DNA of 64,000 nt, taken from positions 327,538-391,537 of the forward strand of contig CAZBFO010000001.1 of assembly GCA_964491475.1 (NCBI GenBank), written 5' to 3'. The notes beneath the pieces are model-generated. The model had not been told where the DNA came from, made no database searches, and saw only the letters and a list, made by a program, of their open reading frames with translations. Each line of letters begins with the position of its first letter. Position 1 is the stretch's first letter. This DNA is from an uncultured Gammaproteobacteria bacterium (lineage in GTDB: Bacteria; Patescibacteriota; Patescibacteriia; SG8-24). Made by a program: the position numbers and the translations under genes. Shown piece after piece: positions 2,364 to 35,542 of the stretch.

Positions 2364-3533
2364 CTACGCCGCCCTTTGCGCCGTTTTTCGCCTGCGCGGC
2401 TTGGCGCTGTCTTCCACTTGCTGGATGAACTTCCGGCAGATGCTGCGGTAATGCTGCTTTTTCTGCCGCTCGGAATCGAGACGGTACAGGTACTCGCGCC
2501 GGGCCTTGAGGTCGCCCGGCACTTCGCGAACCACCGCTTGGATTTGCGCGATCATGTCGCGTGCCCTGCCGACGATCTCTTCGGGAAGGGTCCGGATCAT
2601 CTTCTCGGCGTTGTGGGCCATCAGGCGCTTCATCAGGTAGCCGTAGGTGAGCTTGGCGGCGACCATCAGCCCGATGTAGGTCTCGAACTTGTACTTCACG
2701 CGCACGCCGTTGGCGAAGCGCGCCACGAGGCCTTCGCGACCGCGAACGGTGGTATCGCGTACCAGCGCCTTGAGGTCGTCGAGCGACGTGCCTTCCCAGC
2801 GCTCGGCGACCGGCAAACTAAGAGCCGCACCGAGATCGAGCAGCTCCGGCCAAGTAAAATCCTTGTGCGTGCCGTTGCGGTACGCGCCGATCAGGGTGAA
2901 CCCTTCTCTGCCGCCGTAGTCGAGATGCACCCGCGTCCGCGGATGGATGATCTCGACGAGCATGGTCACGCCCTCGGGGAACCTGCCGAGCCAGGACTGC
3001 TTTTCGACGATCCGCTGAAGCATCTCGTTGCCGAGCATGGCCGAAGGGCCGTCGAAGGTGACGCGCGTGGCCAAGTGCAGCTCGCCGCGACAGGTGAAGA
3101 CGATTCCCAGATGGCCGTCGTGCTTTTCGGTGGCGACGAACGGTCCTGGCGGTGCCAGCGTCTCCGGATGTTCCCCGTGGTTGAAGAACTTGGGGAACGG
3201 GAAGGCCATCAGGTGGCCGCGGCGGTCGAAGATGATGCCGCGGCAATGCCGGATGGCCGGCGTCCAACCGTCGGGGAAGGCGTGGAGCGTATTATGCGCC
3301 ACGTTGGTGTAGTTGAGCCCGATAAGCGGCAGCTCCTTGTGGAAGTGCGGCTCGACCAACGCCGTCACCGCAGGCATCCCCTTCTTGCGGCGATACCCCA
3401 AGCACTTGGCCATGAACTTCTCGTTGGCCGGCTTCTTCTTCCAGTTGCGGAACTGCTTCTTGCTCTTGATGCGCGCCTTGACCAGCGCGCCGATGAAGGT
3501 ACGAAGGTTCTCTACGGCCTTTTTGGCATCCAA
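2364..3533 (-). CDS. ATP-dependent polynucleotide (RNA) ligase-family nucleotidyltransferase
   Basis: 389 aa. Covalent nucleotidyltransferase motifs: motif I ATEKHDGHLG (KxDG), motif IV EGLVAR, motif V RVKYKFE (K-x-K). Upstream PFPKFFNHGE element typical of RNA ligases. Strong AGGAGG Shine-Dalgarno. Confidence 0.65.
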   Translation of the reverse strand: MDAKKAVENLRTFIGALVKARIKSKKQFRNWKKKPANEKFMAKCLGYRRKKGMPAVTALVEPHFHKELPLIGLNYTNVAHNTLHAFPDGWTPAIRHCRGIIFDRRGHLMAFPFPKFFNHGEHPETLAPPGPFVATEKHDGHLGIVFTCRGELHLATRVTFDGPSAMLGNEMLQRIVEKQSWLGRFPEGVTMLVEIIHPRTRVHLDYGGREGFTLIGAYRNGTHKDFTWPELLDLGAALSLPVAERWEGTSLDDLKALVRDTTVRGREGLVARFANGVRVKYKFETYIGLMVAAKLTYGYLMKRLMAHNAEKMIRTLPEEIVGRARDMIAQIQAVVREVPGDLKARREYLYRLDSERQKKQHYRSICRKFIQQVEDSAKPRRRKTAQRAA

Positions 3534-3623: not shown

Positions 3624-3656
3624 AAAAACGGCTTCTCGTGATGAGAAGCCGTTTTT
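3624..3656 (-). terminator. terminator hairpin directly after tRNA-Glu (AAAAACG-GCTTCTC-loop-GAGAAGC-CGTTTTT)
   Basis: Symmetric hairpin with flanking A- and T-tracts, so bidirectional in form. Abuts the CCA end of the tRNA. Confidence 0.7.
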
Positions 3657-3733
3657 GGTAGTCCCAAGGGGATTCGAACCCCTGTTTTCTCCGTGAGAGG
3701 GAGACGTCCTGGACCGGGCTAGACGATGGGACC
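3656..3733 (-). tRNA. tRNA-Glu (anticodon CUC), CCA encoded
   Basis: 78-nt cloverleaf: acceptor GGTCCCA/TGGGACT (G1-U72 wobble), D-stem GTCT/GGAC, anticodon stem TCTCC/GGAGA with loop CTCTCAC, T-arm AGGGG-TTCGAAT-CCCCT. Close to the E. coli tRNA-Glu pattern. Confidence 0.85.
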
Positions 3734-3850: not shown

Positions 3851-3876
3851 AAAAAGCCGCCCAGTTCGGGGCGGCT
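3851..3876 (-). terminator. rho-independent terminator after murF (GCCGCCC-loop-GGGCGGC + T-tract on minus strand)
   Basis: 7-bp GC stem with a TTTTT run, 6 nt after the murF stop. Confidence 0.65.
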
Positions 3877-3881
3877 GTCGA

Positions 3882-5171
3882 TTAGGCCTTGTCGAGCCAG
3901 TCCTTGTCCTGGCGCACCAGCAGCTTGGGCGCGTCCAGCGGCTCGGCCATGATTTCCTTGACGACGCGCTCCATGCGCATGCCCTGCGAGCCCTTTACCA
4001 GGATCAAGTCGCCCATCTTCATGCGCTCCTGCACGAAGCGGCCGGCTTCGTCGGTGTTGCTGAAGTGAAAGACGTGATCTTCGTTGGCACCGGCGGCCTT
4101 GGCGGCGACGTCGGCGTCATGCATGCGCTCCCCCACCAGCACGATGAGATCGGCGCACTCGGCGGCCTTTTTGCCGACGGCGGCGTGGCCCTCTTCAGTG
4201 GCGGCGCCGAGCTCGAGCATGTCGCCCATGATGGCGATGCGCTTGGCGTTCTCGGGCACGGGCATGTCACGCAGCACTTCGAGCGCTGCGAGCGCGCTCT
4301 TTGGCGCGGCGTTGTAGGTGTCGTCGATGATGACGGTGTGCTTGATGCCGGGAATGTAGCGAAGACGGCCTGCCGGAGCCTTGTACAGGCTGATGGCGTC
4401 GCCGATTTCCACAAGATGCATGCCTTTGGCGATGCCCACGGCGGCCGCTGCCAGGACGGCGTAGATGCCGTGCTTGCCGAGGACGTTGGGAACGAACACG
4501 GGGACGGTGGCGCCGGCGGCAGACATCTTGAAGCGCATGCCGCACTCGTTGTCGATCGAGCACAGGTAGGCCAGCGACTCGGGCAAAGCGCGCACGGTGG
4601 CTTCCTCGTGGAAACCGTAAGACATCACCGTTGCCTTGGTCTTGCCGCGCATGGCCCAGACGCGTTCGTCGTCGCGGTTCAGCACGGCGAACCCTTCCTT
4701 TGGCAGGCGCTCGACGAGCACCCGTTTTTCCTTGGCGATCTCGTCGATCGAGCCCATGAACTCCATGTGGCTCTCCCCCACGGCGGTCTCCACGCCGATG
4801 GTCGGCGCGGCGATGTCGCAGAGGTAGGCGATGTCGCCGGGATGGGTCAGGCCGTACTCCAGAACGAGCAATTTAGGAAACTCGCCGCCACCGAACATTT
4901 TCTGCATCCAGGCTTTGCACAAAATGCCCAGCCAGGCGAAGGCCGACTTGCCGCCCGTGGGAAGATCAAGCACCGACAACGGCAGGCCGATTTCGGTGTT
5001 GAAGTTCTTGGGGCTGCTGCGGACGCGAAAACGCTTGCCCAAGACGGCGCCGATGGCCTCTTTGGCCGAGCTTTTGCCGACCGAGCCGGTTATGCCGATG
5101 ATTTCCGGCTTTTCTCTTGCGATTACCGCCTTGGCGGCATTGGCGAGCGAGGATTCAACGAATTTGCGCAT
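3882..5171 (-). CDS. murF: UDP-N-acetylmuramoyl-tripeptide--D-alanyl-D-alanine ligase MurF
   Basis: Mur ligase P-loop IIGITGSVGKSS, NTEIGLP motif, and MurF-type C-terminus LILVKGSQGMRMERV. 429 aa from the ATG at 5171. Confidence 0.9.
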   Translation of the reverse strand: MRKFVESSLANAAKAVIAREKPEIIGITGSVGKSSAKEAIGAVLGKRFRVRSSPKNFNTEIGLPLSVLDLPTGGKSAFAWLGILCKAWMQKMFGGGEFPKLLVLEYGLTHPGDIAYLCDIAAPTIGVETAVGESHMEFMGSIDEIAKEKRVLVERLPKEGFAVLNRDDERVWAMRGKTKATVMSYGFHEEATVRALPESLAYLCSIDNECGMRFKMSAAGATVPVFVPNVLGKHGIYAVLAAAAVGIAKGMHLVEIGDAISLYKAPAGRLRYIPGIKHTVIIDDTYNAAPKSALAALEVLRDMPVPENAKRIAIMGDMLELGAATEEGHAAVGKKAAECADLIVLVGERMHDADVAAKAAGANEDHVFHFSNTDEAGRFVQERMKMGDLILVKGSQGMRMERVVKEIMAEPLDAPKLLVRQDKDWLDKA

Positions 5172-5194: not shown

Positions 5195-6973
5195 TTAGGT
5201 CCGCTCTGGGGGAATCTGGAGGTATTGTAACAGGTATTTTGCGATGTCTCCAAAGAGAGGTCCGGCCGAGGATTCGGCCCATTGGACGTCCTTGGGGTTG
5301 TCCAGCTCGACCACGATGACGAAGGCGGGGTTATCCACAGGGGCAAAGCCTGCAAAGGAGCCGATGTTTACGCCTTTGAGGTAGCCATGACCGTCAGGGC
5401 TGGGCACTTGAGCCGTGCCGGTCTTGCCGGCCACGAAGTAGCCGGGAACGGCGGCCTTCTTGCCGTGGCCCTTCTCGACCACGCTTACCAGCATGCCGCT
5501 GACCAGCGCCGCCGCGCGCTTGGTGATGACCTGGCGGATGACTTCGGGTTCGACCGTTTCGGCGGTGCCGTCGGCATGAGCGATGCTGCCGACGACGTAC
5601 GGCTTCATCAGCTTGCCGCCGTTGGCGATTGCCGAGTAGGCCGAAGCCATCTGCAGCGGCGTCACCGTGATGCCCTGCCCAAACGAAGCCGTGGCGCTCC
5701 AGATGTCTCCCTTCTTGCGCAGCGACTCGATGTTGCCGCTCGACTCGGTGTCCAGGTCGATGCCCAGCGGGCTGCCGAATCCGAATGCCTCGACGTACTT
5801 GAGGAACTGCTGCGAGCCGACCAGTCGTGAGGCGTAGATGGTGCCGGTGTTGAGTGACTCGTCGAGCACCTGGGTCATGGTCTGCAGGCCGTGGGCCTTG
5901 TGGTCGGAATTCTGGATGGTGAACGGACCGATCTTGACGCTGCCCTCGTCGACGTAGGTGGAGTTGGGCGTGACCTTGCCGGCGTCGATGGCTGCGGCCA
6001 TGGTGACGGCCTTGAAGATGGAGCCCGGTTCGTAGGCGGAAAAGACGGCCCGGTCGTTGAAGGCGCCCACGTCGGTGACGGCCGAGAGGTCGTTGGGGTC
6101 GAAGTCGGGCACGTTGCAGATGGCCATGACGGCGCCGGTGTTCGGGTTCATCACGATGGCCGAGCCGGTGTCTGCCTGATGCCTGATGACCGCCTCGCGC
6201 AGCTTGGTGCAGGTGACGTACTGGATGTTGCGGTCCAACGTCAGCGTCAGGTCGTCGCCGTCCTTGGCGGCGATGAAGCGGTTGGCGCCGCCGATGAGGT
6301 TACCGAGCGAATCGTCGGCGGCGACCGCGGCGGAAGTACCCGACAGCTCTGACTGCCAATGCCCTTCCACGCCGTACCGGCCGACGCGATTGCCGGCATC
6401 GTCGGAGCCGTAAAAGCCGACCGCCTGGGAGAACGATGACTTCTCCGGATAGTAGCGGTATTTGGAAGGGTCGAAGCCGATGCCGGCGAGGTTCAGCGCC
6501 TTCACTTCGGCCATCAGGTCGTCATCGGCCTTGGGTTTGAGCGGGACGTAAGGGGCGTCCTTGCGCGACAGCTTTTCGAGCAGCACCGGCATGTCCATTT
6601 CGAGCACCGGGGCCAAAGCGTTGGCGGCCTCTGCCGGATTCTTGATAGCCCTGGTGTTGGCGTAGACGGTGTAGAGCGTCTTGTTCACGGCCACCGGAAA
6701 CTTGCCGTCGGGCGACTTGGGGTCAAGCGCGTAAATCGTGCCGCGGTCCGGGACGAAGTTGGAGTAACGGTCCCGTTGGCTCTCCGCCAAATCGGCATAA
6801 AACTGGCGTTGCAGCACCTGCAGCACGAACAGCCGCCAGCCGATGGCGGTCATCGCCAACGCCATGAATCCCTTGAGCACCATGAACCGACGCTCTTCCG
6901 AGGAAAAGCGCGGTGACTGACGCGCATGCGCTTGGGAAGGGCGCGGGCGGATGTACGGGATGCGGGGACTCAT
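5195..6973 (-). CDS. ftsI: peptidoglycan D,D-transpeptidase FtsI / PBP2-class penicillin-binding protein
   Basis: N-terminal TM anchor plus dimerisation domain. Transpeptidase motifs S-x-x-K (SIFKAV), SxN region, and KTGTA. The ATG at 6973 overlaps the upstream TGA (ATGA). Confidence 0.9.
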   Translation of the reverse strand: MSPRIPYIRPRPSQAHARQSPRFSSEERRFMVLKGFMALAMTAIGWRLFVLQVLQRQFYADLAESQRDRYSNFVPDRGTIYALDPKSPDGKFPVAVNKTLYTVYANTRAIKNPAEAANALAPVLEMDMPVLLEKLSRKDAPYVPLKPKADDDLMAEVKALNLAGIGFDPSKYRYYPEKSSFSQAVGFYGSDDAGNRVGRYGVEGHWQSELSGTSAAVAADDSLGNLIGGANRFIAAKDGDDLTLTLDRNIQYVTCTKLREAVIRHQADTGSAIVMNPNTGAVMAICNVPDFDPNDLSAVTDVGAFNDRAVFSAYEPGSIFKAVTMAAAIDAGKVTPNSTYVDEGSVKIGPFTIQNSDHKAHGLQTMTQVLDESLNTGTIYASRLVGSQQFLKYVEAFGFGSPLGIDLDTESSGNIESLRKKGDIWSATASFGQGITVTPLQMASAYSAIANGGKLMKPYVVGSIAHADGTAETVEPEVIRQVITKRAAALVSGMLVSVVEKGHGKKAAVPGYFVAGKTGTAQVPSPDGHGYLKGVNIGSFAGFAPVDNPAFVIVVELDNPKDVQWAESSAGPLFGDIAKYLLQYLQIPPERT

Positions 6974-8256
6974 TTGCATGCCCCCTTCTCGTTGGTGATG
7001 CCGAAGTCGAACAGCTTGCCCGGACCGTTGGGATTGCAACCCACTTCGACTTCGTCGCCGTCAGAGACGCCGTCGCCGTCGGAATCCCGGTTGTTGGGAT
7101 CAGTCCCGTAGAAGGCCTCGAGCGAATCAGACAGGCCGTCATGGTCGGTGTCGGACTGGGTGAGGACGGCACCGCCTCCGGAACCGCCCAAGCCGTTGCC
7201 GCCGCCGGTCTCATCGGTACCGTGCTGCACTTCGCCGATCTTGGCCATCGGCAAATGCTGCTGCAAGCCCGAGAGCAGCGACAGCACGAAGGAGGTCACG
7301 TCGGTGAAGTCGCCGGGCGCGTCGGTGCTGCCGATGCGGTTGAAGTTGGAGAAGCGGATATCTGCCGTGAGGTCGCCGCGCCGCGTGCCGGTGTCGATGC
7401 GGACTGCGCACTTGGCGCGATACAGGTAGTAATCGCGGCTGCCGATCCAGAATTCGCATTCCTTGAACGTCAGGCCCGCAAAAAGCGTCTTGGCGGCGGT
7501 CCTTTCGGCGTCGGTGATCGGCCGCTTGAGACGCGCCGCCTCGACCTTCTCGTAAAAGTCCTCCATCAGGACGTTGCCCTCGTCGGTGCGCACCTTGTAG
7601 TGGAAATTCTTGACGCCATCGACGGTTTCGTCCTCAAGCCGCTCGGCGACCGTGAAGAACAGGGTCTTCTTGAACAGCTTGACCAGCGACTTGGCGTCGT
7701 CGTCTGACATGGGCGAAAAGCCCGTGCCGACCATGGGAACGGTCAGCATCTCGAGCATTTTCTGCCGCGCGAGCCGTAACCACTTTCCCTTGAATTTTCC
7801 GAATTGGAGCACGCCCACCTTTTCGGGAATCGCGGTCAGGCGCAGGTAATCGATATCGCCGTCGCGGACGTAATCGCCGGCGAAGTCGTACGGATGGGCG
7901 CTGCCGATCTTCATCTGGAACTGATGGCGCGCCTTGAGCGCTTCGGGATCGCTCATGTTGAACGTGCCTCCCGAATGCCAAGTCAGCGCCTCGGGAGACG
8001 ACTGGTAGGAGCCGTCGGCGCCCTTCTGCGCGGACGATCCGGAGTACGAGATGTCCGCAACCACGTCGACTGCCTTGAGCGAGACCATTTTTGCCTGCAT
8101 GAAACGCAGGATCTCGGATGAGTACGGAAGCGCGAAAAGCAGCAGCAACAGCGCCGCGGCAAAGCCGGCCGCGACGACGGATATGAAAACGGTCAGCAGG
8201 ACGTAAGGCTGCGCGTACCAGCGCGGACCGACATCTTGTCCTTCGAAAGGCTCCAT
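6970..8256 (-). CDS. membrane-anchored hypothetical protein with C-terminal thrombospondin-type-3-like Ca-binding Asp-rich repeats
   Basis: 428 aa. N-terminal TM (LLTVFISVVAAGFAAALLLLLFAL). C-terminal DTDHDGLSDSLEAFYGTDPNNRDSDGDGVSDGDE. Shares a Y-x-R-L-[ST]-x-[IL]-P...GKW segment with the upstream gene. Translationally coupled to ftsI. Confidence 0.6.
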   Translation of the reverse strand: MEPFEGQDVGPRWYAQPYVLLTVFISVVAAGFAAALLLLLFALPYSSEILRFMQAKMVSLKAVDVVADISYSGSSAQKGADGSYQSSPEALTWHSGGTFNMSDPEALKARHQFQMKIGSAHPYDFAGDYVRDGDIDYLRLTAIPEKVGVLQFGKFKGKWLRLARQKMLEMLTVPMVGTGFSPMSDDDAKSLVKLFKKTLFFTVAERLEDETVDGVKNFHYKVRTDEGNVLMEDFYEKVEAARLKRPITDAERTAAKTLFAGLTFKECEFWIGSRDYYLYRAKCAVRIDTGTRRGDLTADIRFSNFNRIGSTDAPGDFTDVTSFVLSLLSGLQQHLPMAKIGEVQHGTDETGGGNGLGGSGGGAVLTQSDTDHDGLSDSLEAFYGTDPNNRDSDGDGVSDGDEVEVGCNPNGPGKLFDFGITNEKGACK

Positions 8257-8259
8257 AGG

Positions 8260-9249
8260 TCAGTTCGTCGGTTTCTTGAATGCGGCCATGAGATCGCTGT
8301 ACGGGGTGATGTCATCGGGCGGCTTCACCTCGACGGGCTCGTTCCAGGAAGTGAACTTGAGCACCATGCTGAAATGATTGGCGTCGGAACCGGCGTCGGA
8401 ACCGCCGGCGTCGCGGGAGGAAACGGTCAGCTGCAATTGCGCCAGCTCCTCCTGCCGCGTGTTGACCCAGACTTCCAGGGACACATCGCGTTTCGCCAAC
8501 TCGTCGGCCACCTGCTGCATCTCTTCGGCCGAGAGCGAACGGCCGAGCACCAGGCTCTTGAGGTCCTGGGAAAAGGTCACCAACCGGTCGGGATGCATCG
8601 GCAGGATGAACCGCTTGATCGGCTGCGTGGTCATTTCGGTCAGCGCAAGAGGCACCGGCGTGCCGAAGAAACCGGGCTTGACCAATTCCTGGCGGAGCGA
8701 TTGCCAGCTGGCTGCCGGACGCGAGCCGGTGGAGGCGGCGCCTTCCGCTGCGGCGGTCTGGGGAGAGCGGACGATCAGCGAAGCCAGCGTGCGCGCATCC
8801 ATCGAGAACCATTTGCCATTCACCCGTTTCACCAAGGCGGCATCCTTGGCGGTTAGCGGAAGGTTGGAGAGCCTGGCATAAGCCGTACCGTCCTGTCCGG
8901 CGCTGACGTCCAGCGTCAGGTCCTTGCCGCCGTCACCCTGCCCGATCAAATCGAAGGTGGCCTTGCCGCTTGGCGGCCGGTCCTTCGGCATGTTCATGCC
9001 CCCTTCGCCAACGAAGACGATCGGCACCGGAGCACCTTTCGGATCTCCGCCCGCTGCGGCAATCGTCGACTCTGGAGCGAACGTCCCGATGGTGGCGGCT
9101 GCCATGAACGAAACGTCCCCGTCGAGCTTGTGCAGCGCCGTCAGCACGACTTTCTCCGGTCGCGTGGCGAAGAACACCGTCGGCACGAGCGCACCGGCAG
9201 CCATGAGCGCGAAGACGGCGACGATGACGGCTTGGCGTGACTTTTCCAT
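8260..9249 (-). CDS. membrane-anchored hypothetical protein (paralogous segment shared with 6970-8256)
   Basis: 329 aa. N-terminal TM (AVIVAVFALMAAGALVPTVFFA). YARLSNLP...VNGKWFSM aligns with YLRLTAIP...KGKWLRL of its neighbour. 10-nt gap to rarA and 3-nt gap to the next gene. Confidence 0.55.
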   Translation of the reverse strand: MEKSRQAVIVAVFALMAAGALVPTVFFATRPEKVVLTALHKLDGDVSFMAAATIGTFAPESTIAAAGGDPKGAPVPIVFVGEGGMNMPKDRPPSGKATFDLIGQGDGGKDLTLDVSAGQDGTAYARLSNLPLTAKDAALVKRVNGKWFSMDARTLASLIVRSPQTAAAEGAASTGSRPAASWQSLRQELVKPGFFGTPVPLALTEMTTQPIKRFILPMHPDRLVTFSQDLKSLVLGRSLSAEEMQQVADELAKRDVSLEVWVNTRQEELAQLQLTVSSRDAGGSDAGSDANHFSMVLKFTSWNEPVEVKPPDDITPYSDLMAAFKKPTN

Positions 9250-9259
9250 AGCGATGGGA

Positions 9260-10537
9260 CTATGTCTTGGTCAGATATTTTTTGCCTTTGAGCCGCGATG
9301 GCAGGAAGTCCTGGTGCACGTCCGGGGCATCGGGGGTGTAGACGTAGCCCTTGCCGTAGCCGACTTCCTTCATCAGCTTGGTGACGCCGTTGCGGATGTG
9401 CATCGGGACCGGATCGTTCGGCGCTTCGGCGATGTCCTTCTTGACCTCGCCGTATGCCCGATAGACCTCGACGGACTTAGGGGCGCGAGCCAAGTACACC
9501 ACGCACTGCGCCAAAATCACGTCGCCTTCCGGCATGCCCAGCTGATGCACGGCTTCGAAAGCCGCCGTTGCCTGCACCAGCGCGTTAGGGTCTGCCAAAC
9601 CCACGTCCTCGGAGGCGAAACGGACAAGGCGCCGGGCCACGTAGAGAGGATCGTCGCCGGCCTGGAGCATCCGTCCCAGCCAGTAGAGGGCCGCATCGGC
9701 GTCATTGCCGCGCATGCTCTTATGCAAGGCGGAGATGACGTTGTAATGCTGCTCGCCGTCCTTGTCGTACAGCAAGTGCGAACGCTTGAGGATTTTTGCG
9801 GCATCCTCACGGCGTAAGAGTACCACGTCGGCAGCCGCGGCGTCGACGCCGGTTTTGCGGGCGCCCAGGACGGTTCCGGCGGCCAATTCAAGGGCGTTCA
9901 GGGCGCCGCGGGCGTCGCCGTCAGCCACCTCGGCGATCATCCGCAATACGTCGTCTTCGGCTTGAACGCGTCCGGCCAAGCCGCGCGGCGCGGTCAGCGC
10001 CCGCCGCAGGAGCGAAACGATGTCGCCGGCCTCCAGCTTATGCAGCACGAACACGCGGCTGCGCGACAGCAATGCGGAGTTGACCTCGAAGGAAGGGTTT
10101 TCGGTGGTGGCGCCGATAAGCGTGACCGTGCCGTCCTCGACATACGGCAAAAAAGCGTCCTGTTGCGCCTTGTTCCAGCGATGGATTTCGTCGATGAAGA
10201 CGATGGTGCGGGTCCCGGTCAGTTTGCGGCGGTCGATGGCATCGGACACCACCTGCCGCAGTTCGGCCACGCCGCTGGAAACGGCCGGCATCGACACGAA
10301 GCGCGACTTGGTAAGCGAAGCCACCACCCTGGCCAGGGTGGTTTTGCCGGTACCAGGAGGCCCCCACAAAATCATCGAGGGCACTTCGTCGGCTTCGATT
10401 AGGCCGCGCAGGGCGCTCCCCTCGCCGGCCAGGTCCCGCTGCCCTACGAACTCCTCGAGGGTTTCGGGGCGCATCCGGTCGGCCAATGGGGCTTCCTTGA
10501 GCCGTTGCTGCTTCGCCTTATAGTCGAACAGGTCCAT
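9260..10537 (-). CDS. rarA: replication-associated recombination protein A (RarA/MgsA AAA+ ATPase)
   Basis: Walker A GPPGTGKTT, Walker B VFIDEIHR, sensor and C-terminal MgsA helices. 425 aa from MDLFDYK. The ORF-track ORF extends further upstream to 11137, but that extension is rejected. Confidence 0.9.
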   Translation of the reverse strand: MDLFDYKAKQQRLKEAPLADRMRPETLEEFVGQRDLAGEGSALRGLIEADEVPSMILWGPPGTGKTTLARVVASLTKSRFVSMPAVSSGVAELRQVVSDAIDRRKLTGTRTIVFIDEIHRWNKAQQDAFLPYVEDGTVTLIGATTENPSFEVNSALLSRSRVFVLHKLEAGDIVSLLRRALTAPRGLAGRVQAEDDVLRMIAEVADGDARGALNALELAAGTVLGARKTGVDAAAADVVLLRREDAAKILKRSHLLYDKDGEQHYNVISALHKSMRGNDADAALYWLGRMLQAGDDPLYVARRLVRFASEDVGLADPNALVQATAAFEAVHQLGMPEGDVILAQCVVYLARAPKSVEVYRAYGEVKKDIAEAPNDPVPMHIRNGVTKLMKEVGYGKGYVYTPDAPDVHQDFLPSRLKGKKYLTKT

Positions 10538-10663
10538 ATGCGGCCATTCTACGGGTTCCTTTGCGAAGTTGCGAGAACGGCCCTCCCACTTGCCCGTCCG
10601 TGACCAATGCCTTACGCTCTGTACATTGCCTGTTCCTTGCAGACCACGAGCAAAGGTGTCCCG

Positions 10664-10975
10664 ATGTCTCCCATACGAGAAACGAGAGACGATCGCGTAG
10701 CCAAGCTTAAGGGAAAGTTCCTGGCACTGAACCGCCTGCGGCGGCTCAAGGAGTTCGTCCGCTACGACCGCGCCGCCGACGGCGACCTCCCCCACCCCTT
10801 TCCCCAAGACTACGTCGAAGAGTGCCGAGATGCGCTCTGGCAACTCCTCTGGGAGGACTACGAGAAAGAGGACCGGCTGCCTGATCTGGAGCGGCTCGTC
10901 CGCATGGTCAAACGCCGGCCGTCCAGGTCGTTCTACCCCGATGCCCCGTCGGTTCCCGACGATGACGACTTTTAG
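10664..10975 (+). CDS. hypothetical small protein (103 aa)
   Basis: ORF starting MSPIRETRDD. No family recognised. Confidence 0.4.
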   Translation: MSPIRETRDDRVAKLKGKFLALNRLRRLKEFVRYDRAADGDLPHPFPQDYVEECRDALWQLLWEDYEKEDRLPDLERLVRMVKRRPSRSFYPDAPSVPDDDDF

Positions 10976-11090
10976 AAGGCCCGTTTTCATTGCGGGTCCT
11001 TTTCTTTTCCCCGGTTGACCCGAGCGACGGAACCTGTTACTTTTCCTCGTCCGCCCGACACCGTGTCGCGTGGCAACAGGAGGACTCCGA

Positions 11091-12281
11091 ATGAATGACG
11101 GCCGCCCTTTCAAAAAGACGTCTCGCGTCCCTCTCAAGGACTACCGGCTGCCCGAAGCGCGTTTGGCGGTGCTCAAACGGTACGGCCACGACATCCGGCT
11201 TCCCGGCATCCAAGCCGCGGAAGCCGCCTCGGTCAAGCTGATCGAAAACGCCATCGGCTCGTTTCCGATACCCATCGGCATTGCCACCAACTTCGTCATC
11301 AACGGCGAAGAACGTTTGGTGGCGATGGCTATCGAGGAAAAGTCGGTAGTCGCCGGCGCTTCCTACGCCGCCAAGCTCTGCCGCGAAAACGGCGGATTCT
11401 CGGTGATCGTCGGACCGAACGTGATGCGCGGACATATCCTGTTCGCTTCCACCCCCAAGTGGCAGCATGACGCATTTGACCGCCTTGGCGGCCTTAACCA
11501 GCTGTGCCGTAAGGCCGCCGAAGAGCTGGACTGCTCGGAGCGCCAAACGCGTGCGCATTGCCGGCTTATCACCGACGGTTTCGGACACGAAGTCTCGGCG
11601 TGCCGGCTGGACGGAGGCTTCGGCAGGCCGAGCCTGCTGGTCATCAACTTCCAGATGGACGTCGGCAACGCCATGGGCGCGAACGCCGTCACCCGCTTCG
11701 GCGAGGATCTGGCAGCCCTGCTGGAGCCGATCATCGGTGCCAAAAGAAAGGCGGTAATCTGCTCCGATGACGCCACCCACCTGTCCGGTTCCGAAGTGAA
11801 GGTGCAGGCAGCGTGGCCCATCGCCCTGCTGGGCAAGGAGGTCGCAGAGACCATCGTCACCCTCCAACATTGGGCCGATGCCGACCCCGCTCGTGCCGTC
11901 ACGCACAACAAAGGCGCGATGAACGGCGTGAGCGCGGTGGCGCTGGCGACGGGTCAGGACGTCCGCGCCATTGAGGCAGCTTCTCACGCAAAAGCTGCCT
12001 ATGAGGGCATGCCCTACGCCTACAGCAAAACGCTGACGAATTACGAGATCCTCGACAGGAATCTCGTCGGCTGGCTGAAGCTGCGAGTGCCGCTTGGCAC
12101 TGTCGGCGGCGCCACCTCGCACCCTACAGCCGTGCAGGTCCGCAAGCTGATGGACGTGGAAAATTTCCAAGACCTTGCGGCGGTCATCGGCGCCGTCGGT
12201 CTCGCGCAGAACTTCGCCGCGTTGCGCATGCTCGCCGACGAAGGCGTAGGCGAGGCGCATAGCCGCCTCAAGGAAACCTGA
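11091..12281 (+). CDS. hydroxymethylglutaryl-CoA reductase, class II
   Basis: ENAIGSFPIPIG and VGNAMGANAV signatures. 396 aa. CAGGAGGA Shine-Dalgarno before the ATG at 11091. Confidence 0.85.
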   Translation: MNDGRPFKKTSRVPLKDYRLPEARLAVLKRYGHDIRLPGIQAAEAASVKLIENAIGSFPIPIGIATNFVINGEERLVAMAIEEKSVVAGASYAAKLCRENGGFSVIVGPNVMRGHILFASTPKWQHDAFDRLGGLNQLCRKAAEELDCSERQTRAHCRLITDGFGHEVSACRLDGGFGRPSLLVINFQMDVGNAMGANAVTRFGEDLAALLEPIIGAKRKAVICSDDATHLSGSEVKVQAAWPIALLGKEVAETIVTLQHWADADPARAVTHNKGAMNGVSAVALATGQDVRAIEAASHAKAAYEGMPYAYSKTLTNYEILDRNLVGWLKLRVPLGTVGGATSHPTAVQVRKLMDVENFQDLAAVIGAVGLAQNFAALRMLADEGVGEAHSRLKET

Positions 12282-13240: not shown

Positions 13241-13315
13241 CGGGGCGTAGCGCAGTGGTAGCGCGCATCGTTCGGGACGATGAGGCCGCAGGTTCAATCC
13301 CTGTCGCCCCGACCA
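13241..13315 (+). tRNA. tRNA-Pro (anticodon CGG), CCA encoded
   Basis: Acceptor CGGGGCG/CGCCCCG, D-arm GCGC-AGTGGTA-GCGC, anticodon stem CATCG/CGATG with loop TTCGGGA, T-arm GCAGG-TTCAATC-CCTGT, discriminator A, CCA. 75 nt. Confidence 0.9.
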
Positions 13316-18224: not shown

Positions 18225-19382
18225 CTATCCGAAGGTGAAGGCGTAACATTCCGCGCCCTTGTCTTTGAACTCGATGCGCAGCAGATGGGTGCCGTACTCC
18301 CCCTTGGCGTCAATCAGGCTGTACAACCGCTGGCCCGAAACGTCCACGAAGGTCTTACCGCCCTCCTCGACCAGGTCCGGGCCGCGCATTCCGGCGGCCA
18401 CCGGCTTCCCGTCAAGCGTCACCTCCGCGCGGACGGTCTTGCCGTTGCCGCCCATCACCAAGTTGACGTTAGCGGCGTTGAAAGTGTAGACGATTGCCGA
18501 TCCAGCCTGCGAACTCACGGCTTTTTCGGATTGGACATCCCAATAGCCGTCGAGCGCGAACATGTTGTGGCGCAACGGCGACGGAATCGAGTAGTGCCGG
18601 TCGGTATCCCTGGCCACGCCCTCGGGACTGGCGAAGTATTCCTGCCTGGAGTAACCGAGATAGGTTTCCGGGGAGCCGATCTTCGAGAAATCGATTTTCG
18701 TTTCGACCTCCGTCACCGGCATCTCGGCGGCCTTGCCTGCCTCGGCCAGCAGCAGCTGGATGTTGCGCTCGGTCTCGTCATAGGCGCCTTCGCCGAAATG
18801 CATCTCGCGCAGCTTGCCGTCCGCGTCGAAGAGGTAATGCGCCGGCCAATAATGGTTGTCGTAGCCGTTCCAGGTGGAATAGGCGTTGTCGAGCGCCACC
18901 GGGTAATTGATGTCGTGACGCTTGATGGCGTCGCGGACGTTGTTCACGTCCTTCTCGAAGGCGAACTCGGGCGTGTGCACGCCGACCACCACGAACCCTT
19001 TGTCCTTGTACTTCTCATACCATGACGTGACGTACGGAAGGGTGCGGATGCAGTTGATGCAGGAATATGTCCAGAAATCGACCAGCACCACTTTGCCCTT
19101 CAGGCTGTCGGGCGTAAGCGGTTCGCTGTTCAGCCAGGCGGTAATTTCGGTAAACGGCGGCATCGCGTCAGCGAGAACCGGGAGCGAAGACTTGTCTCCC
19201 TGCTTCACTCCGCGTGCAATCTGGGAGACGCCCGGCTTGGGCGCGCCGGCAGACGAACTGCCGAGGTCCGTGCCGTTGCGGCCCAAACGGGTATCGACCA
19301 CGTAGGCCATCAGCACCAGGGCCGCCGTGGCCACTGCGCCGATGAAAAGGAACTGCTTGGTCTTGTCGGTGGGAGCGCTCAT
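18225..19382 (-). CDS. thioredoxin-fold thiol:disulfide oxidoreductase (TlpA/ResA-like) with a C-terminal beta-rich domain; DipZ C-terminal-half-like
   Basis: TM anchor, redox motif WTYSCINCIRTLP, then a ~170-aa extra domain. The ATG at 19382 overlaps the TGA of ccdA (ATGA). Confidence 0.75.
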   Translation of the reverse strand: MSAPTDKTKQFLFIGAVATAALVLMAYVVDTRLGRNGTDLGSSSAGAPKPGVSQIARGVKQGDKSSLPVLADAMPPFTEITAWLNSEPLTPDSLKGKVVLVDFWTYSCINCIRTLPYVTSWYEKYKDKGFVVVGVHTPEFAFEKDVNNVRDAIKRHDINYPVALDNAYSTWNGYDNHYWPAHYLFDADGKLREMHFGEGAYDETERNIQLLLAEAGKAAEMPVTEVETKIDFSKIGSPETYLGYSRQEYFASPEGVARDTDRHYSIPSPLRHNMFALDGYWDVQSEKAVSSQAGSAIVYTFNAANVNLVMGGNGKTVRAEVTLDGKPVAAGMRGPDLVEEGGKTFVDVSGQRLYSLIDAKGEYGTHLLRIEFKDKGAECYAFTFG

Positions 19383-20092
19383 AGGTTGCCGGTAAAAGAT
19401 GACGGATAGAACTGGATCAGCCAGGTCTGAAAGGCGATGTCGTAGCCGGTCAGGATCAGCAGCGCCATTCCCACGACCAATACGCCGAAAATCTTGTTCA
19501 AGACCGACTGCCATCTTCCGAAGGCGACCAGCCTGCGTTGCAGGGCATTGCCGCCATAGGCGATGCCCAGCATAGGCACGCCGGCACCGAGCGCATAGGC
19601 GAAAAGCAACAGCAGCGTCGTGAGGAAGTCGGGATTGCGGCTGGCCAGGGTCAAAATCGATCCCAGGATGGGTCCGGCGCAAGGCGTCCAGATCAGTCCG
19701 AGCGAAAGGCCGACCATAAGTCCGGACGCGGCGTCCGTGCGTTTGCTCGCTCCGCTGGAGAGCTTGCCGCTCCACCGCGCCAGCACCGGCTGCAGACTTG
19801 CCATGGCCCTGTCGTAGGCTTTCTCGAAGAGCAGCGCCAGTCCGAAGAGGAGCAGCAGTACCACGGCGACGGTGCGCAAGACGGAGTTGCTGACGCCCAA
19901 GAAAGTACCGAACGTCGCCAGGGCGGCGCCGATGAGGCTGAAGCTGCCCACGAATCCGACGATGATCATCAGCGGCCGGAACTTGGACTTGCCGCCGCTG
20001 GTGCCGAGAAGGAACGGCAGCAGGGGCAAAATGCAGGGCGCGAGGATGGTCAGGAAACCGGCGACGATGGCAAGAAAGAAAAGGCTGTGCAT
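19379..20092 (-). CDS. ccdA: cytochrome c-type biogenesis / disulfide-transfer membrane protein CcdA (DsbD beta-domain family)
   Basis: 6-TM protein with the two conserved Cys (APCILPLL...WTPCAGPILG). Confidence 0.8.
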   Translation of the reverse strand: MHSLFFLAIVAGFLTILAPCILPLLPFLLGTSGGKSKFRPLMIIVGFVGSFSLIGAALATFGTFLGVSNSVLRTVAVVLLLLFGLALLFEKAYDRAMASLQPVLARWSGKLSSGASKRTDAASGLMVGLSLGLIWTPCAGPILGSILTLASRNPDFLTTLLLLFAYALGAGVPMLGIAYGGNALQRRLVAFGRWQSVLNKIFGVLVVGMALLILTGYDIAFQTWLIQFYPSSFTGNL

Positions 20093-30831: not shown

Positions 30832-30834
30832 AGG

Positions 30835-31911
30835 TCAGGCTTTTTTACGATACGCGAGCATGGCAACGGCAGTCAACGCGACCAGAATGCTGGCGACCAT
30901 GCCGATGGCCGCCACCTTTTCCCACCCCTGCAGGATGAGCGTCGAAGTCCCGAACAGGGCCGCCACGAAATAATACAGCAGCACCACCTGCCGCTGCGAC
31001 CAGCCGAAATCGAGCAGCCGGAAATGCAGGTGCGAACGGTCACCGGCCGCCGGCGACTTCTTCTGGAGCAGCCGGCGGACGATGACGAATGCGGCGTCGA
31101 AAATCGGCAGTCCCAGGACCAGCAACGTCGTGGCAATCTTTCCGCCCGAGATGATGGCCAGCGTGCCAAGAAGGAAGCCCGCCATCGTCGATCCGCCCTC
31201 GCCGAGAAAAATCGAGGCGGGACTGCCGTTGAACAGCAGGAATCCGGCGAACGCCGCGGCGACGATGACCGCAAGCACCGCCGTGTCCGGCTGCGACACC
31301 TCTTTCATCAGGCTGACGGCTGCGACGACCAGCGCGCCGATGACGGTCACGCCGCTGACCAGGCCGTCGAGCCCGTCGAGGAACTTGGTGGTGTAGGTCA
31401 TGCCCAGCAGCCACAGCACCGTGAAGGCGTCGGCCAATGGCGTGACCTTGTAGGGGATGCCGGCCAGCCACAGCACGGTGACCGAAAACCCGTTCAGGTA
31501 CAGCTGTCCGCCGAAGGGATTGGTGACGAAAGTGATACCGATGCCGCTGGCGACGATGGCCAGCGCGGCCAGTACTGGCCAGACGATCTGTTTCCAGGGC
31601 CGGAGATTTCGGGCGTCATCCCAGGCTCCGCCGAACATCAGCAGGAAGGCAGCGATGACGATGCTGATCAGGAATTTCCCTTTTACGTGCAGGCCCGGCA
31701 GCCAACCGAACCCGATCGCCGTCGCGACCGCCACGGCCATGGCGACGAATACCGCCACGCCGCCCAGCAGCGCCACCGGCCGGCCATGCGCCTTGCGCTC
31801 ACCGTCCGGCCGATCGACTACTCCCGTGCGCCAAGCCAAAAACCGCACCAGCGGGGTGACGCAGGCGGCGACGGCAAACGATATGGCGGCATTGAGCAAA
31901 AGCGTGGGCAT
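30835..31911 (-). CDS. glycosyltransferase family 4 polyprenyl-phosphate sugar-1-phosphate transferase (WecA/TagO-like more than MraY-like)
   Basis: DDxxN (AWDDARN), TKFLDGLDGL, FLGEGGSTMAGFLLG, DRSHLHFRLL. Spacing matches the WecA motifs DGIDGL / GSTLIGF / DRxHIHH. 3-nt gap to the DUF192 gene. Confidence 0.7.
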   Translation of the reverse strand: MPTLLLNAAISFAVAACVTPLVRFLAWRTGVVDRPDGERKAHGRPVALLGGVAVFVAMAVAVATAIGFGWLPGLHVKGKFLISIVIAAFLLMFGGAWDDARNLRPWKQIVWPVLAALAIVASGIGITFVTNPFGGQLYLNGFSVTVLWLAGIPYKVTPLADAFTVLWLLGMTYTTKFLDGLDGLVSGVTVIGALVVAAVSLMKEVSQPDTAVLAVIVAAAFAGFLLFNGSPASIFLGEGGSTMAGFLLGTLAIISGGKIATTLLVLGLPIFDAAFVIVRRLLQKKSPAAGDRSHLHFRLLDFGWSQRQVVLLYYFVAALFGTSTLILQGWEKVAAIGMVASILVALTAVAMLAYRKKA

Positions 31912-31981
31912 GGGCACCGCGTTACTGTAGGCAAAGGTAGCACGGTCCCGGACTGCGGAAAAGACGCGGCCGGATGATTTC

Positions 31982-32018
31982 GAGAAAAAGAAAAGGCGCA
32001 CCGGAAGGCCGGTGCGCC
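31982..32018 (-). terminator. terminator hairpin (GGCGCACCGG-AAGG-CCGGTGCGCC) with a T-tract on the minus strand
   Basis: 10-bp perfect stem. Ends the monocistronic gene 32076-33647. Confidence 0.75.
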
Positions 32019-32075
32019 TTTCGACAGCCGTCAACGACGGCGGTCAATCAAGAAGCTAAGGGAGAGAAAGAACCG

Positions 32076-33647: not shown

Positions 33648-33790
33648 GACGACTCTCCTCGGGTCAAAAAACCCTAGTCCGGATAGGCCGGACACCTTCG
33701 GTTGTCAAACCGCCCTCTCCACGCACTATGCGCAGAAAGAACAACAGACTATAGCACGAAAACACCTTTCTGTCAATCCGTCCATGCAAA

Positions 33791-33820
33791 CAAAAAACGC
33801 TCTGCTAAGCGTTTTTTTTG
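33791..33820. terminator. bidirectional terminator (AAAAAACGCT-CTGCTA-AGCGTTTTTTTT) ending the mraZ-rsmH-ftsL operon
   Basis: Perfect A/T-extended hairpin 50 nt past the ftsL stop. Confidence 0.75.
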
Positions 33821-33870
33821 GAGGGGTTCCTTTTTGATTTCAGACCTCTACTAAGCCGAATTGGCCAAGA

Positions 33871-34227
33871 TTAGCGGATAGCCACCGCTCCCGTGCCGCT
33901 GTTAAGGTAGTCGACGTCAGTCACCGGCACCAAGCCCAAACCCTGGATCTTGCCATCAAGGGAATCCATCGACTCGTCAGTGACTACGGATAAATCCAGC
34001 TTCTGCCGCTGGTTCTGCAGTTCATTGATGCGCCGTTCCATGCTGCGAATGGCAAAACCCTTCTCGGTGGCGCTGTTGTTCAACACCAAATACCCGGCGA
34101 ACAGCGCGATGACGCCCAGCGCGATCAGGGCGTTCAGCACGCGGATGTCACGCCACAGCGGCACGTAGGCGAGGCGCGCCTCGCGGGCCGCGGCAAACGA
34201 CGGCGGATTGTAGCTTGCATGTGTCAT
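33871..34227 (-). CDS. ftsL: cell division protein FtsL-like (bitopic, coiled-coil)
   Basis: 118 aa. Single TM (VLNALIALGVIALFAGYLVL) followed by a coiled coil. Translationally coupled to rsmH (ATGA overlap). Canonical position after rsmH. Confidence 0.65.
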   Translation of the reverse strand: MTHASYNPPSFAAAREARLAYVPLWRDIRVLNALIALGVIALFAGYLVLNNSATEKGFAIRSMERRINELQNQRQKLDLSVVTDESMDSLDGKIQGLGLVPVTDVDYLNSGTGAVAIR

Positions 34228-35108: not shown

Positions 35109-35110
35109 AA

Positions 35111-35542
35111 CTACACTCCCAGTTCGCCCATCCGTTCGGCGATGTCGTTCGAGTCTTTTTCTGTTTTTGCCTTGTAGGCGTCCCAGGACTTTTTGTCCCA
35201 GATTTCGATGCGGCCGTAGAGGCCGGCAACGACGGCATCTTTGGCGATGCCAGCGTAGCGGCGCAGGTATTCCGGCAGCACCACCCTCCCCTGCTTGTCG
35301 ATCTCCACGTCCATAGCGCCGGCGAGCATCAGGCGCGCGAACGCACGGGCGTTCGCCTGGCTGAATGGAAGTGCAGACAGTTTTTCGGCGAGCTTTTTCC
35401 ACTCGGCCATCGAGTATACGAAGAGACAGTTGTCGAGACCCCTGGTCACGACGGCGCCGCCCTTGAGCTCCTTGCGGAACTTGGTCGGTATCGCCAATCT
35501 CCCCTTCTCGTCGACCGCGTGGTTGTACTCACCGATAAACAT
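35111..35542 (-). CDS. mraZ: transcriptional regulator MraZ
   Basis: Duplicated MraZ half-domains (MFIGEYNHAVDEKGRLAIP ... DKQGRVVLP). Confidence 0.9.
   Translation of the reverse strand: MFIGEYNHAVDEKGRLAIPTKFRKELKGGAVVTRGLDNCLFVYSMAEWKKLAEKLSALPFSQANARAFARLMLAGAMDVEIDKQGRVVLPEYLRRYAGIAKDAVVAGLYGRIEIWDKKSWDAYKAKTEKDSNDIAERMGELGV

What the first reader, a model, noticed from the sequence alone, without database searches (positions are those of the whole stretch)
6970..10537. Two tandem paralogous membrane proteins (one with TSP3-type Ca-binding repeats) translationally coupled into a rarA-X-Y-ftsI-murF operon
Genes 8260-9249 and 6970-8256 are both N-terminally membrane-anchored and share the segment Y-x-R-L-[ST]-x-[IL]-P...GKW (YARLSNLP..VNGKWFSM versus YLRLTAIP..KGKWLRL). 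The second ends in DTDHDGLSD...DSDGDGVSDGDE, an Asp-rich Ca-binding repeat. They sit with 10-nt and 3-nt gaps after rarA, and the second overlaps ftsI by ATGA, so all are almost certainly co-translated with the septal transpeptidase and murF. This is the position where ftsL/ftsQ-type bitopic divisome proteins normally sit. Here they would be unrecognised, lineage-specific periplasmic partners of FtsI, possibly Ca-dependent.
Basis: partly seen in the sequence, partly recalled or inferred. Interest (0 to 1): 0.7.

Follow-up and report, generated by a model that had tools for sequence, protein, structure and literature searches.

The report
Tandem LolA/LprG-fold proteins beside ftsI
Two neighbouring membrane-anchored genes upstream of the cell-wall transpeptidase gene are real ancient duplicates with a lipid-carrier-type (LolA/LprG) fold; they belong to a large unnamed family of ultra-small (CPR) bacteria, are not stand-ins for the division proteins FtsL/FtsQ, and any role with the transpeptidase is unproven.

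Summary
On the minus strand, rarA (10537..9260), X (9249..8260), Y (8256..6970), a class B PBP "ftsI" (6973..5195) and murF (5171..3882) are packed with 10-nt and 3-nt gaps, an ATGA overlap and a 23-nt gap. An intrinsic terminator follows murF.

X and Y are true paralogues: profile-profile E 1.7e-14 over 306 columns. Y carries two TSP3 calcium-binding repeats.

An FtsL-type gene already sits in its usual slot after mraZ-rsmH, at 34227..33871 in the same window.

The domain has no Pfam model but defines a large family: 3,904 clusters at 50% identity. Named members are all Patescibacteria. Forms include lipoproteins, TM-anchored proteins, and fusions to TSP3 repeats or pilin-like domains.

Linkage to ftsI is limited to the Y orthologue clade (19 of 19 informative loci) and a Wildermuthbacteria-type subgroup. 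About 35 distant members lie elsewhere, and X is missing in four lineages.

Best reading: envelope accessory proteins with a hydrophobic-ligand-binding fold, possibly PBP-associated. Interest is moderate.

The parts
9260..10537 (-). rarA/mgsA (425 aa), first gene of the block
   Evidence: Pfam MgsA_C 4.3e-56, AAA_assoc_2 and AAA. Conserved directly upstream of X or Y in all informative loci.
8260..9249 (-). X: 329-aa bitopic protein, TM anchor plus LolA/LprG-fold ectodomain, no TSP3 repeats
9169..9234 (-). X N-terminal membrane anchor (about residues 6-27)
   Evidence: Hydrophobic stretch AVIVAVFALMAAGALVPTVFFA preceded by K3/R5. Helix 4-18 in the model. No Cys, so no lipobox.
8800..8880 (-). 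X copy of the shared motif Y-x-[RK]-[LF]-x-N-[LV]-P ... GKW (Y124-M150)
   Evidence: P131 and W147 are invariant in the X family.
6970..8256 (-). Y: 428-aa bitopic protein with TM anchor, LolA/LprG-fold ectodomain, Gly-rich linker and two TSP3 repeats
8131..8208 (-). Y N-terminal membrane anchor (residues 17-42)
   Evidence: Helix 17-42 in the model. Basic residues precede it in homologues (KKWY, RKKWY), which implies N-in/C-out topology.
7264..8121 (-). Y LolA/LprG-like domain (residues 46-331), including the family signature WIGxxDYYLYR (W270-R280)
   Evidence: Strand/helix pattern. Invariant W159, W270, G272, D275 and Y276. The signature WIGxxDYYLY retrieved 23 loci from the genome scan; those with informative labels are Patescibacteria, while a few carry other phylum names or just 'bacterium'.
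7771..7848 (-). Y copy of the shared motif (Y137-L162: YLRLTAIP...KGKWLRL)
7159..7263 (-). Gly-rich, predicted disordered linker (residues 332-366)
   Evidence: pLDDT 23-49 over residues 331-366. The region is variable in the alignment.
7024..7158 (-). Two bacterial TSP3 Ca-binding repeats (residues about 367-411: DTDHDGLSD...DSDGDGVSDGDE)
   Evidence: Pfam PF18884, E 1.4e-12, two stretches. D369, D371, D373, G374, D391 and D393 are invariant in 17 homologues.
7000..7035 (-). Conserved C-terminal tail NPxGPGxLFDFG (residues 408-419), function unknown
   Evidence: P409 and G419 are invariant; G411, G413, F416, D417 and F418 are at least 90% conserved.
5195..6973 (-). Class B penicillin-binding protein (ftsI/spoVD-like transpeptidase)
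   Evidence: Pfam Transpeptidase 1.1e-76 and PBP_dimer 1.3e-9. NCBIfam best hits are spoVD_pbp and pbp2_mrdA, all below equivalog cut-offs. Division versus elongation role is therefore not settled.
3882..5171 (-). murF (429 aa from ATG 5171)
   Evidence: NCBIfam TIGR01143 murF, 290 bits against a cut-off of 288.6. Gene length in homologues 429-430 aa.
3855..3876 (-). Intrinsic-terminator-like hairpin plus T-run 6 nt after the murF stop; probable end of the operon
   Evidence: Eight-pair stem with 7 GC pairs followed by TTTTCT. A second hairpin lies at 3842-3824.

Best explanation
What they are. X and Y are the products of one ancient tandem duplication. They belong to a large, unnamed, Patescibacteria (CPR)-wide family of extracytoplasmic proteins. 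Members are tethered to the membrane by a lipobox or by an N-terminal TM helix. Their roughly 280-residue domain has the LolA/LppX-LprG half-beta-barrel fold (the 'PLLLF' superfamily). This part is shown here.

Gene context. In an Uhrbacteria-related clade the Y orthologue is fixed between rarA and a class B PBP gene plus murF. It carries a flexible Gly-rich linker and two Ca-binding TSP3 repeats. It is almost certainly co-transcribed with those genes. X is an optional second copy that has lost the family's WIGxxDYYLY signature.

Inferred mechanism. The half-barrel sits on the outer face of the membrane next to the PBP. It acts as an accessory module for wall synthesis in one of two ways. It could dock onto the PBP as an allosteric or scaffolding partner, as the LolA-like lipoprotein GerS does for the amidase CwlD. 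Alternatively it could hold the hydrophobic tail of a lipid-linked ligand. The Ca-loaded TSP3 module would reach into the wall. X and Y are not FtsL or FtsQ substitutes.
For: Paralogy.
- hhalign probability 98.3%, E 1.7e-14 over 306 columns.
- In an NJ tree the X clade and the Y clade are sisters.

Fold.
- Two separately built models were used, each from its own family alignment.
- Foldseek gives LolA3 and RseB.

Family.
- A 339-position profile that excludes TSP3 finds 3,904 50%-identity clusters at E<=1e-3.
- Named members are Uhr-, Falkow-, Wildermuth-, Peregrini-, Komeili- and Magasanikbacteria.
- Many members have a lipobox.
- 16 of 23 members give sub-threshold hits to the NCBIfam SCO4651 lipoprotein family.

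Operon.
- 10-nt and 3-nt gaps, the ATGA overlap and the terminator after murF.
- Short gaps or overlaps also occur in Uhrbacteria loci.

Linkage to PG genes.
- Y-ftsI adjacency holds in 19 of 19 informative orthologue loci, down to 29% Y identity.
- A different subgroup places a family member immediately upstream of mraZ-rsmH-ftsL-ftsI.
- In Falkowbacteria a member lies 2-3 kb upstream of ftsI-murF.

Precedent.
- LolA-like proteins in monoderms regulate wall enzymes or shape: GerS-CwlD and SsdC (bioRxiv 10.1101/2025.01.13.632879).
Against: - No direct evidence of any contact with the PBP.
- rarA is conserved in the same block as strongly as Y. Synteny in this clade may therefore be inheritance rather than function.
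- About 35 distant family members have no PG or division gene within 6 kb. In Peregrinibacteria the neighbours are enolase, flavodoxin and PFOR.
- X is absent from four lineages (L008, L011, L012, L037/38).
- The closest structural relatives (LprG, LppX, LprF) are glycolipid carriers, not enzyme regulators.
- The models are of moderate confidence (pLDDT 74 and 68). The cavity could not be inspected because no coordinates were available.
- Transcription was inferred from spacing and pattern scans only.
Confidence: 0.45

Rival explanations
1. X and Y are generic lipid, glycolipid or lipoprotein carriers, used for membrane maintenance or for scavenging host lipids, as LprG and LppX carry lipids in mycobacteria. 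They have no specific relationship with the PBP. Their position in the rarA-ftsI-murF block is inherited gene order.
For: - The top structural matches are glycolipid carriers.
- The family is very large, and most members are not next to wall genes.
- rarA shares the same conserved synteny without any plausible wall function.
- Background knowledge, not tested here: CPR bacteria generally lack de novo lipid synthesis.
Against: - Y-ftsI adjacency survives to 29% Y identity, with overlapping or near-overlapping reading frames.
- A second subgroup is independently adjacent to mraZ-rsmH-ftsL-ftsI.
- No transporter partner (MFS or MmpL type, as for LprG and LppX) is encoded nearby.
Confidence: 0.3
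2. They are Ca-dependent cell-surface structural or adhesion proteins, used for attachment to a host cell or matrix. The TSP3 repeats are the functional part and the half-barrel is a stalk or binding module.
For: - TSP3 repeats recur after this domain in many relatives.
- Some relatives also carry pilin-like T2SSG or T4SS_pilin C-terminal domains.
- The TSP3 region matches biofilm-associated surface proteins in the PDB.
Against: - X and many family members lack TSP3 altogether.
- The conserved core is the half-barrel, not the repeats.
- This reading does not explain the operon with the PBP and murF.
Confidence: 0.1
3. One reading: X and Y are unrecognised FtsL/FtsQ-type bitopic divisome proteins occupying the slot upstream of ftsI.
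For: - Bitopic topology.
- Position immediately upstream of ftsI with translational overlap.
Against: - An FtsL-type 118-aa gene follows rsmH elsewhere in the window. It is homologous to the protein in the rsmH-ftsI slot of another CPR genome.
Confidence: 0.05
4. They are RseB/MucB-like envelope-stress sensors that bind an anti-sigma factor.
Against: - These matches score lower than LprG and LppX.
- No sigma or anti-sigma gene lies in the block or its flanks.
- RseB's second domain is absent.
Confidence: 0.02

Closest known systems
Mycobacterial LppX / LprG / LprF lipoproteins (Pfam LppX_LprAFG; PDB 2byo, 3mh9, 4qa8)
   Different: There is no sequence-level match (9-20% identity in the structural alignment; no Pfam hit). 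X and Y use a TM helix instead of a lipobox. Their domain is about 80 residues larger, with extra helices. Y adds TSP3 repeats. No MFS or MmpL partner gene is present, and ligand binding is untested.
LolA / LolB / LolA3 lipoprotein carriers and RseB (the PLLLF superfamily, SSF89392)
   Different: From background knowledge, CPR cells have no outer membrane to sort lipoproteins to. No LolCDE genes are nearby. X and Y are anchored rather than soluble.
GerS (C. difficile) and SsdC (B. subtilis): LolA-like proteins of monoderms acting on wall enzymes or cell shape
   Same: The fold class is the same according to the literature. They are membrane-tethered and work with peptidoglycan-modifying machinery in bacteria without an outer membrane (bioRxiv 10.1101/2025.01.13.632879).
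NCBIfam NF053532, SCO4651 family lipoprotein (Actinobacteria)
   Same: It is the only sequence-level relative found. 16 of 23 family members hit it, and a Falkowbacteria member aligns over nearly the full model (9-276 of 277, E 2.1e-12).
   Different: All scores are below the curated cut-off of 65 bits (X 18.7, Y 21.7, best relative 47.3). X and Y are not lipoproteins. I found no described function for that family.
FtsL / DivIC and FtsQ / DivIB
   Same: Bitopic, N-in/C-out topology, encoded next to ftsI.
   Different: The size and fold are different. A separate FtsL-type gene is present after rsmH.

Membership tests
LolA / LppX-LprG structural superfamily (PLLLF, SSF89392) | Unclosed antiparallel beta-sheet (half-barrel) packed against helices | tested here: met
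LolA / LppX-LprG structural superfamily (PLLLF, SSF89392) | Hydrophobic ligand-binding cavity | not testable with these tools
LolA / LppX-LprG structural superfamily (PLLLF, SSF89392) | Extracytoplasmic location via signal peptide or lipobox | tested here: inconclusive
   X and Y have one N-terminal TM helix and no Cys lipobox. Distant relatives have classic L-[TS]-[AGS]-C lipoboxes. The outside location is inferred from topology.
Pfam LppX_LprAFG (PF07161), LolA (PF03548), DUF6612 (PF20316): sequence membership | Score above the Pfam gathering threshold | tested here: not met
   X, Y and 21 relatives gave no hit to LppX_LprAFG or LolA at E<=0.1. Single sub-threshold DUF6612 hits were seen (E 0.0065-0.0067).
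NCBIfam SCO4651 family lipoprotein (NF053532) | Score of at least 65 bits, and a lipoprotein signal | tested here: not met
   X 18.7 bits, Y 21.7 bits, best relative 47.3 bits. X and Y have no lipobox.
Bacterial TSP3 repeat (PF18884) | DxDxDGxxDxxE-type Ca-binding repeat above the Pfam threshold | tested here: met
   Y: 47.7 bits (cut-off 25), two repeats, with the Asp and Gly positions invariant in 17 homologues. X has none. Calcium binding itself was not tested.
FtsL / DivIC | About 100-130 aa; TM helix followed by a coiled-coil (leucine-zipper) ectodomain; gene after rsmH (mraW) | tested here: not met
   X and Y are 329 and 428 aa with a beta-rich ectodomain. A 118-aa protein at 34227..33871 has these features and is homologous to the rsmH-ftsI slot protein of L017.
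FtsQ / DivIB | POTRA domain plus FtsQ beta domain | tested here: not met
GerS-type LolA-like regulators of peptidoglycan enzymes | Direct binding to and activation of a wall enzyme | not testable with these tools
Only gene adjacency to the PBP is available.
Single operon rarA-X-Y-ftsI-murF | Co-transcription with no internal terminator or promoter | tested here: inconclusive
   Gaps of 10, 3, -4 and 23 nt. The only strong hairpins with a T-run on this strand lie 6-58 nt after murF. Weak internal pattern matches fall inside coding sequence. No transcript data were available.

The most novel reading that the evidence does not exclude
Y, with X where present, is a dedicated extracytoplasmic subunit of the class B PBP in a branch of Patescibacteria. 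It would be a LolA/LprG-fold, Ca-stabilised activator or lipid II-presenting factor. That would make it a new type of PBP regulator, taking the role played elsewhere by FtsQLB, MreC or Lpo-type activators.
Probability: 0.15. Interest if true: 0.7.

Novelty: new variant of a known kind. Interest (0 to 1): 0.4.

Why it matters
Division and wall synthesis in CPR/Patescibacteria are almost unstudied, and many canonical regulators are hard to find in these reduced genomes.

A very large, unnamed family of surface-tethered LolA/LprG-fold proteins in bacteria without an outer membrane raises the question of what these proteins carry or regulate. One branch of the family is locked into an operon with the class B transpeptidase and MurF.

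If that branch proves to be a PBP accessory factor, it would extend the GerS/SsdC precedent. That precedent shows LolA-like proteins repurposed for wall-enzyme control, and this case would extend it to a vegetative synthase in a new phylum.

If they are lipid carriers instead, they bear on how lipid-auxotrophic epibionts handle membrane lipids.

Either way, the family deserves a curated model. At present Pfam has none.

Tried and rejected
Sequence searches that gave nothing for the half-barrel domain.
- Pfam on X, Y and 21 relatives, including permissive thresholds: nothing for the domain.
- PDB sequence searches with the Y, X and whole-family profiles: only the TSP3 repeats and a short chance match of the WIGxxDYYLY motif to designed beta-propellers.
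- A third word-indexed homologue search with the broad alignment mostly re-found close X and Y proteins.

Searches that could not be run.
- Foldseek against afdb50: the library is not installed.

Literature. Searches for CPR plus LolA, LprG, dcw or FtsL found nothing on this family.

Hypotheses rejected.
- FtsL or FtsQ identity: wrong fold and size, and a separate ftsL-like gene exists.
- RseB-like stress sensor: no sigma or anti-sigma genes, and lower structural scores.
- Chance similarity of the shared motif: the profile E-value rules this out.
- Independent duplications producing X in different lineages: the NJ tree shows one X clade (no bootstrap).

Side checks. The 539-aa protein between the ftsL-like gene and mraY has no Pfam or PDB-sequence match.
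Full report
Observation. The minus strand between 10537 and 3882 carries five tightly packed genes:
- rarA/mgsA, 10537..9260 (Pfam MgsA_C 4e-56).
- X, 9249..8260, 329 aa.
- Y, 8256..6970, 428 aa.
- A class B penicillin-binding protein, 6973..5195 (Transpeptidase 1e-76 plus PBP_dimer).
- murF, 5171..3882 (TIGR01143 above its cut-off).

There are 10 nt between rarA and X and 3 nt between X and Y. An ATGA overlap joins Y and the PBP, with an AAGGGGG run 7 nt upstream of that ATG. A public gene call uses an ATG 6 nt further up instead. murF follows after 23 nt. A strong hairpin with a T-run lies 6 nt past the murF stop, and nothing comparable lies inside the block.

Are X and Y really paralogues? 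Pairwise BLASTP is marginal (E 0.008, 21% identity over 276 aa). I collected 17 full-length Y homologues and 10-13 X homologues. Comparing the two family profiles gives hhalign probability 98.3%, E 1.7e-14 and 306 aligned columns, running from the membrane anchor to the end of the domain. In a neighbour-joining tree, all proteins in the X position form one clade and all in the Y position form another. The two clades are sisters relative to more distant family members (no bootstrap). This indicates one old duplication. X has lost the family's most conserved signature: WIGxxDYYLYR in Y reads VWVNTRQEELAQ in X.

- For X: LprG 12.0, LprF 11.9 and LppX 11.4.
- In both lists LolA-like proteins, LolA, LolB and RseB/MucB follow.

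Foldseek on X gives LolA3 and RseB. [quoted passage not shown] There is no sequence-level membership in any Pfam family and no PDB sequence match outside the TSP3 repeats. The only sequence relative is NCBIfam's SCO4651 family lipoprotein. 16 of 23 family members hit it, always below the curated cut-off.

How big is the family and where is it found?
- The signature WIGxxDYYLY retrieved 23 loci from one-genome-per-species GTDB. Those with informative labels are Patescibacteria: Uhr-, Falkow-, Wildermuth-, Peregrinibacteria and the Parcubacteria group. A few MAGs carry other phylum names, but their gene content is that of close relatives of the window.
- A profile of 339 positions was verified locally to exclude the TSP3 region and to recognise distant members at 62-169 bits. 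It finds 3,904 clusters at 50% identity with E<=1e-3, and 1,982 with E<=1e-10, among 1.84 billion representatives.
- Sampled members with names are Komeilibacteria and Magasanikbacteria. One is labelled 'outer membrane lipoprotein-sorting protein'.
- Architectures vary: plain lipoproteins with an L-[TS]-[AGS]-C lipobox, TM-anchored forms, and forms with a small cytoplasmic N-terminal domain. Many carry C-terminal TSP3 repeats, and some carry pilin-like T2SSG or T4SS_pilin domains.
- Y's architecture is therefore a common one in this family, not something special to the ftsI neighbourhood.

Is the link to ftsI real?
- For orthologues of Y (29-77% identity), every locus with enough flanking sequence has the PBP gene immediately downstream and murF after it. 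That is 19 of 19 loci across the genome and metagenome scans. rarA lies upstream in every locus that extends that far.
- X is present in about 12 distinct loci but absent, with no room for it, in L008, L011, L012 and L037/38.
- In a separate subgroup (Wildermuthbacteria L017, and metagenome loci L041, L042 and L045), a TM-anchored family member sits directly upstream of mraZ-rsmH, a small bitopic protein and ftsI.
- In Falkowbacteria a lipoprotein member lies 2-3 kb upstream of ftsI-murF, with unrelated genes between.
- In Peregrinibacteria-type loci the neighbours are enolase, flavodoxin and pyruvate:ferredoxin oxidoreductase.
- About 35 further distant members have no wall or division gene within 6 kb.
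- The association is thus strong within two branches but is not a property of the family. Within the Y branch, rarA is conserved just as strongly, which shows that gene order alone cannot carry a functional argument here.

The FtsL/FtsQ argument. The same window holds a second fragment of the division/cell-wall cluster on the minus strand:
- mraZ, 35542..35111.
- rsmH, ending at 34224.
- A 118-aa protein, 34227..33871, overlapping the rsmH stop by 4 nt. It has one TM helix followed by a coiled-coil-like segment.
- A 539-aa protein with no recognisable domain.
- mraY, 32034..30835.

The 118-aa protein is homologous (E 5e-7) to the 125-aa protein that lies between rsmH and ftsI in the Wildermuthbacteria locus. 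The FtsL slot is therefore filled. In this lineage the cluster has simply been split, with ftsI-murF relocated behind rarA-X-Y. Together with the fold result, this removes the basis for treating X and Y as FtsL/FtsQ-type proteins.

Mechanism.
- Shown here: two paralogous, outward-facing, membrane-tethered LolA/LprG-fold proteins. One has a flexible linker and two TSP3 repeats with all Ca-ligand positions conserved. Both are encoded in what looks like one operon with a class B PBP and MurF.
- Inferred: they act at the outer face of the membrane in envelope biogenesis.
- The version I favour (0.45) is an accessory role for the neighbouring PBP. The protein would either bind the PBP directly, as GerS binds and activates the amidase CwlD in a monoderm, or handle a lipid-linked ligand.
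- The main rival (0.30) is a general lipid, glycolipid or lipoprotein carrier with no specific tie to the PBP. It fits the closest structural relatives and the wide family distribution.
- A Ca-dependent adhesin or structural role (0.10) fits the TSP3 and pilin fusions in relatives. It does not fit X or the conserved core.
- FtsL/FtsQ-type (0.05) and RseB-type (0.02) readings are poorly supported.

Limits.
- The afdb50 library was missing.
- There are no transcript data.
- Whether the PBP is the divisome or the elongasome enzyme is open. NCBIfam hits to spoVD, mrdA and ftsI models are all below their equivalog cut-offs.
- The source organism is inferred to be a high-GC (about 62%) patescibacterium from its nearest relatives, not from a marker-gene phylogeny.

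Verdict. The finding is a new variant within a known structural superfamily: an unnamed, very large CPR family, one branch of which is operonic with the transpeptidase. It is a reasonable lead for CPR envelope biology but not the FtsL/FtsQ replacement first proposed. Interest 0.4.

Noticed in passing
window 30316-35542 (minus strand): A second fragment of the division/cell-wall cluster: mraZ (35542..35111), rsmH (to 34224), a 118-aa FtsL-type bitopic protein (34227..33871, 4-nt overlap with rsmH), a 539-aa protein, mraY (32034..30835) and DUF192. ftsI and murF are missing from their usual place here and sit 25 kb away behind rarA-X-Y, so the cluster is split in this lineage.
   Followed up: partly
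window 32076-33695 (minus strand): A 539-aa protein sits between the ftsL-like gene and mraY, in the slot where ftsI/murE normally lie. It has no Pfam hit and no PDB sequence match, and I saw no obvious TM segment on reading it. Its function is unknown.
   Followed up: partly
window 11070-12281 (+): An HMG-CoA reductase gene (Pfam HMG-CoA_red in the public gene call of the identical contig) lies upstream of rarA on the opposite strand; a 122-aa ORF of unknown function (10607-10975, +) separates the two. A mevalonate-pathway enzyme is notable in a reduced patescibacterial genome and could bear on isoprenoid or undecaprenyl supply.
   Followed up: no
window 18225-19775, 20162-20686, 56530-57309: Genes for extracytoplasmic thiol-disulfide chemistry: a thioredoxin/redoxin fusion, VKOR and a DsbA-like protein. 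Y in this clade has two Cys in its C-terminal tail (GCNP...GACK) that could form a disulfide.
   Followed up: no
window 3656-3733 (-) and 13241-13315 (+): tRNA-Glu(CTC) lies just downstream of the murF terminators, and tRNA-Pro(CGG) is also present. A T4 Rnl1-type RNA ligase gene (2364-3533, minus strand) follows the tRNA-Glu.
   Followed up: no
P0145, P0158, P0172, P0153 (relatives): Family members are fused to type IV/type II pilin-like domains (T2SSG, T4SS_pilin). Some also carry a conserved small N-terminal cytoplasmic domain (MxNQQLLDYIKQ...GW). This suggests that parts of the family are associated with surface filaments.
   Followed up: partly
L019-L022, L026, L027 (Peregrinibacteria-type loci): A lipoprotein family member is conserved directly downstream of enolase in all six loci. 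In L020, L021, L022 and L026 flavodoxin plus the PFOR alpha and beta subunits follow. In L019 other genes follow instead, and L027 ends at the member. This is a second, unrelated conserved neighbourhood for the family.
   Followed up: partly
L007, L009, L012 and proteins P0106, P0111: Several close relatives of this locus are deposited under non-CPR names: Candidatus Binatia, Vicinamibacterales, Gammaproteobacteria and Eisenbacteria. Their rarA, ftsI and murF are 52-76% identical to the window and the synteny is the same. These are probably mislabelled or mis-binned MAG contigs.
   Followed up: no
window 7000-7035 (minus strand; Y residues 408-419): A strongly conserved C-terminal tail, NPxGPGxLFDFG, follows the TSP3 repeats in Y and in many TSP3-bearing relatives. 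It is not part of the Pfam repeat model, and its role is unknown.
   Followed up: no
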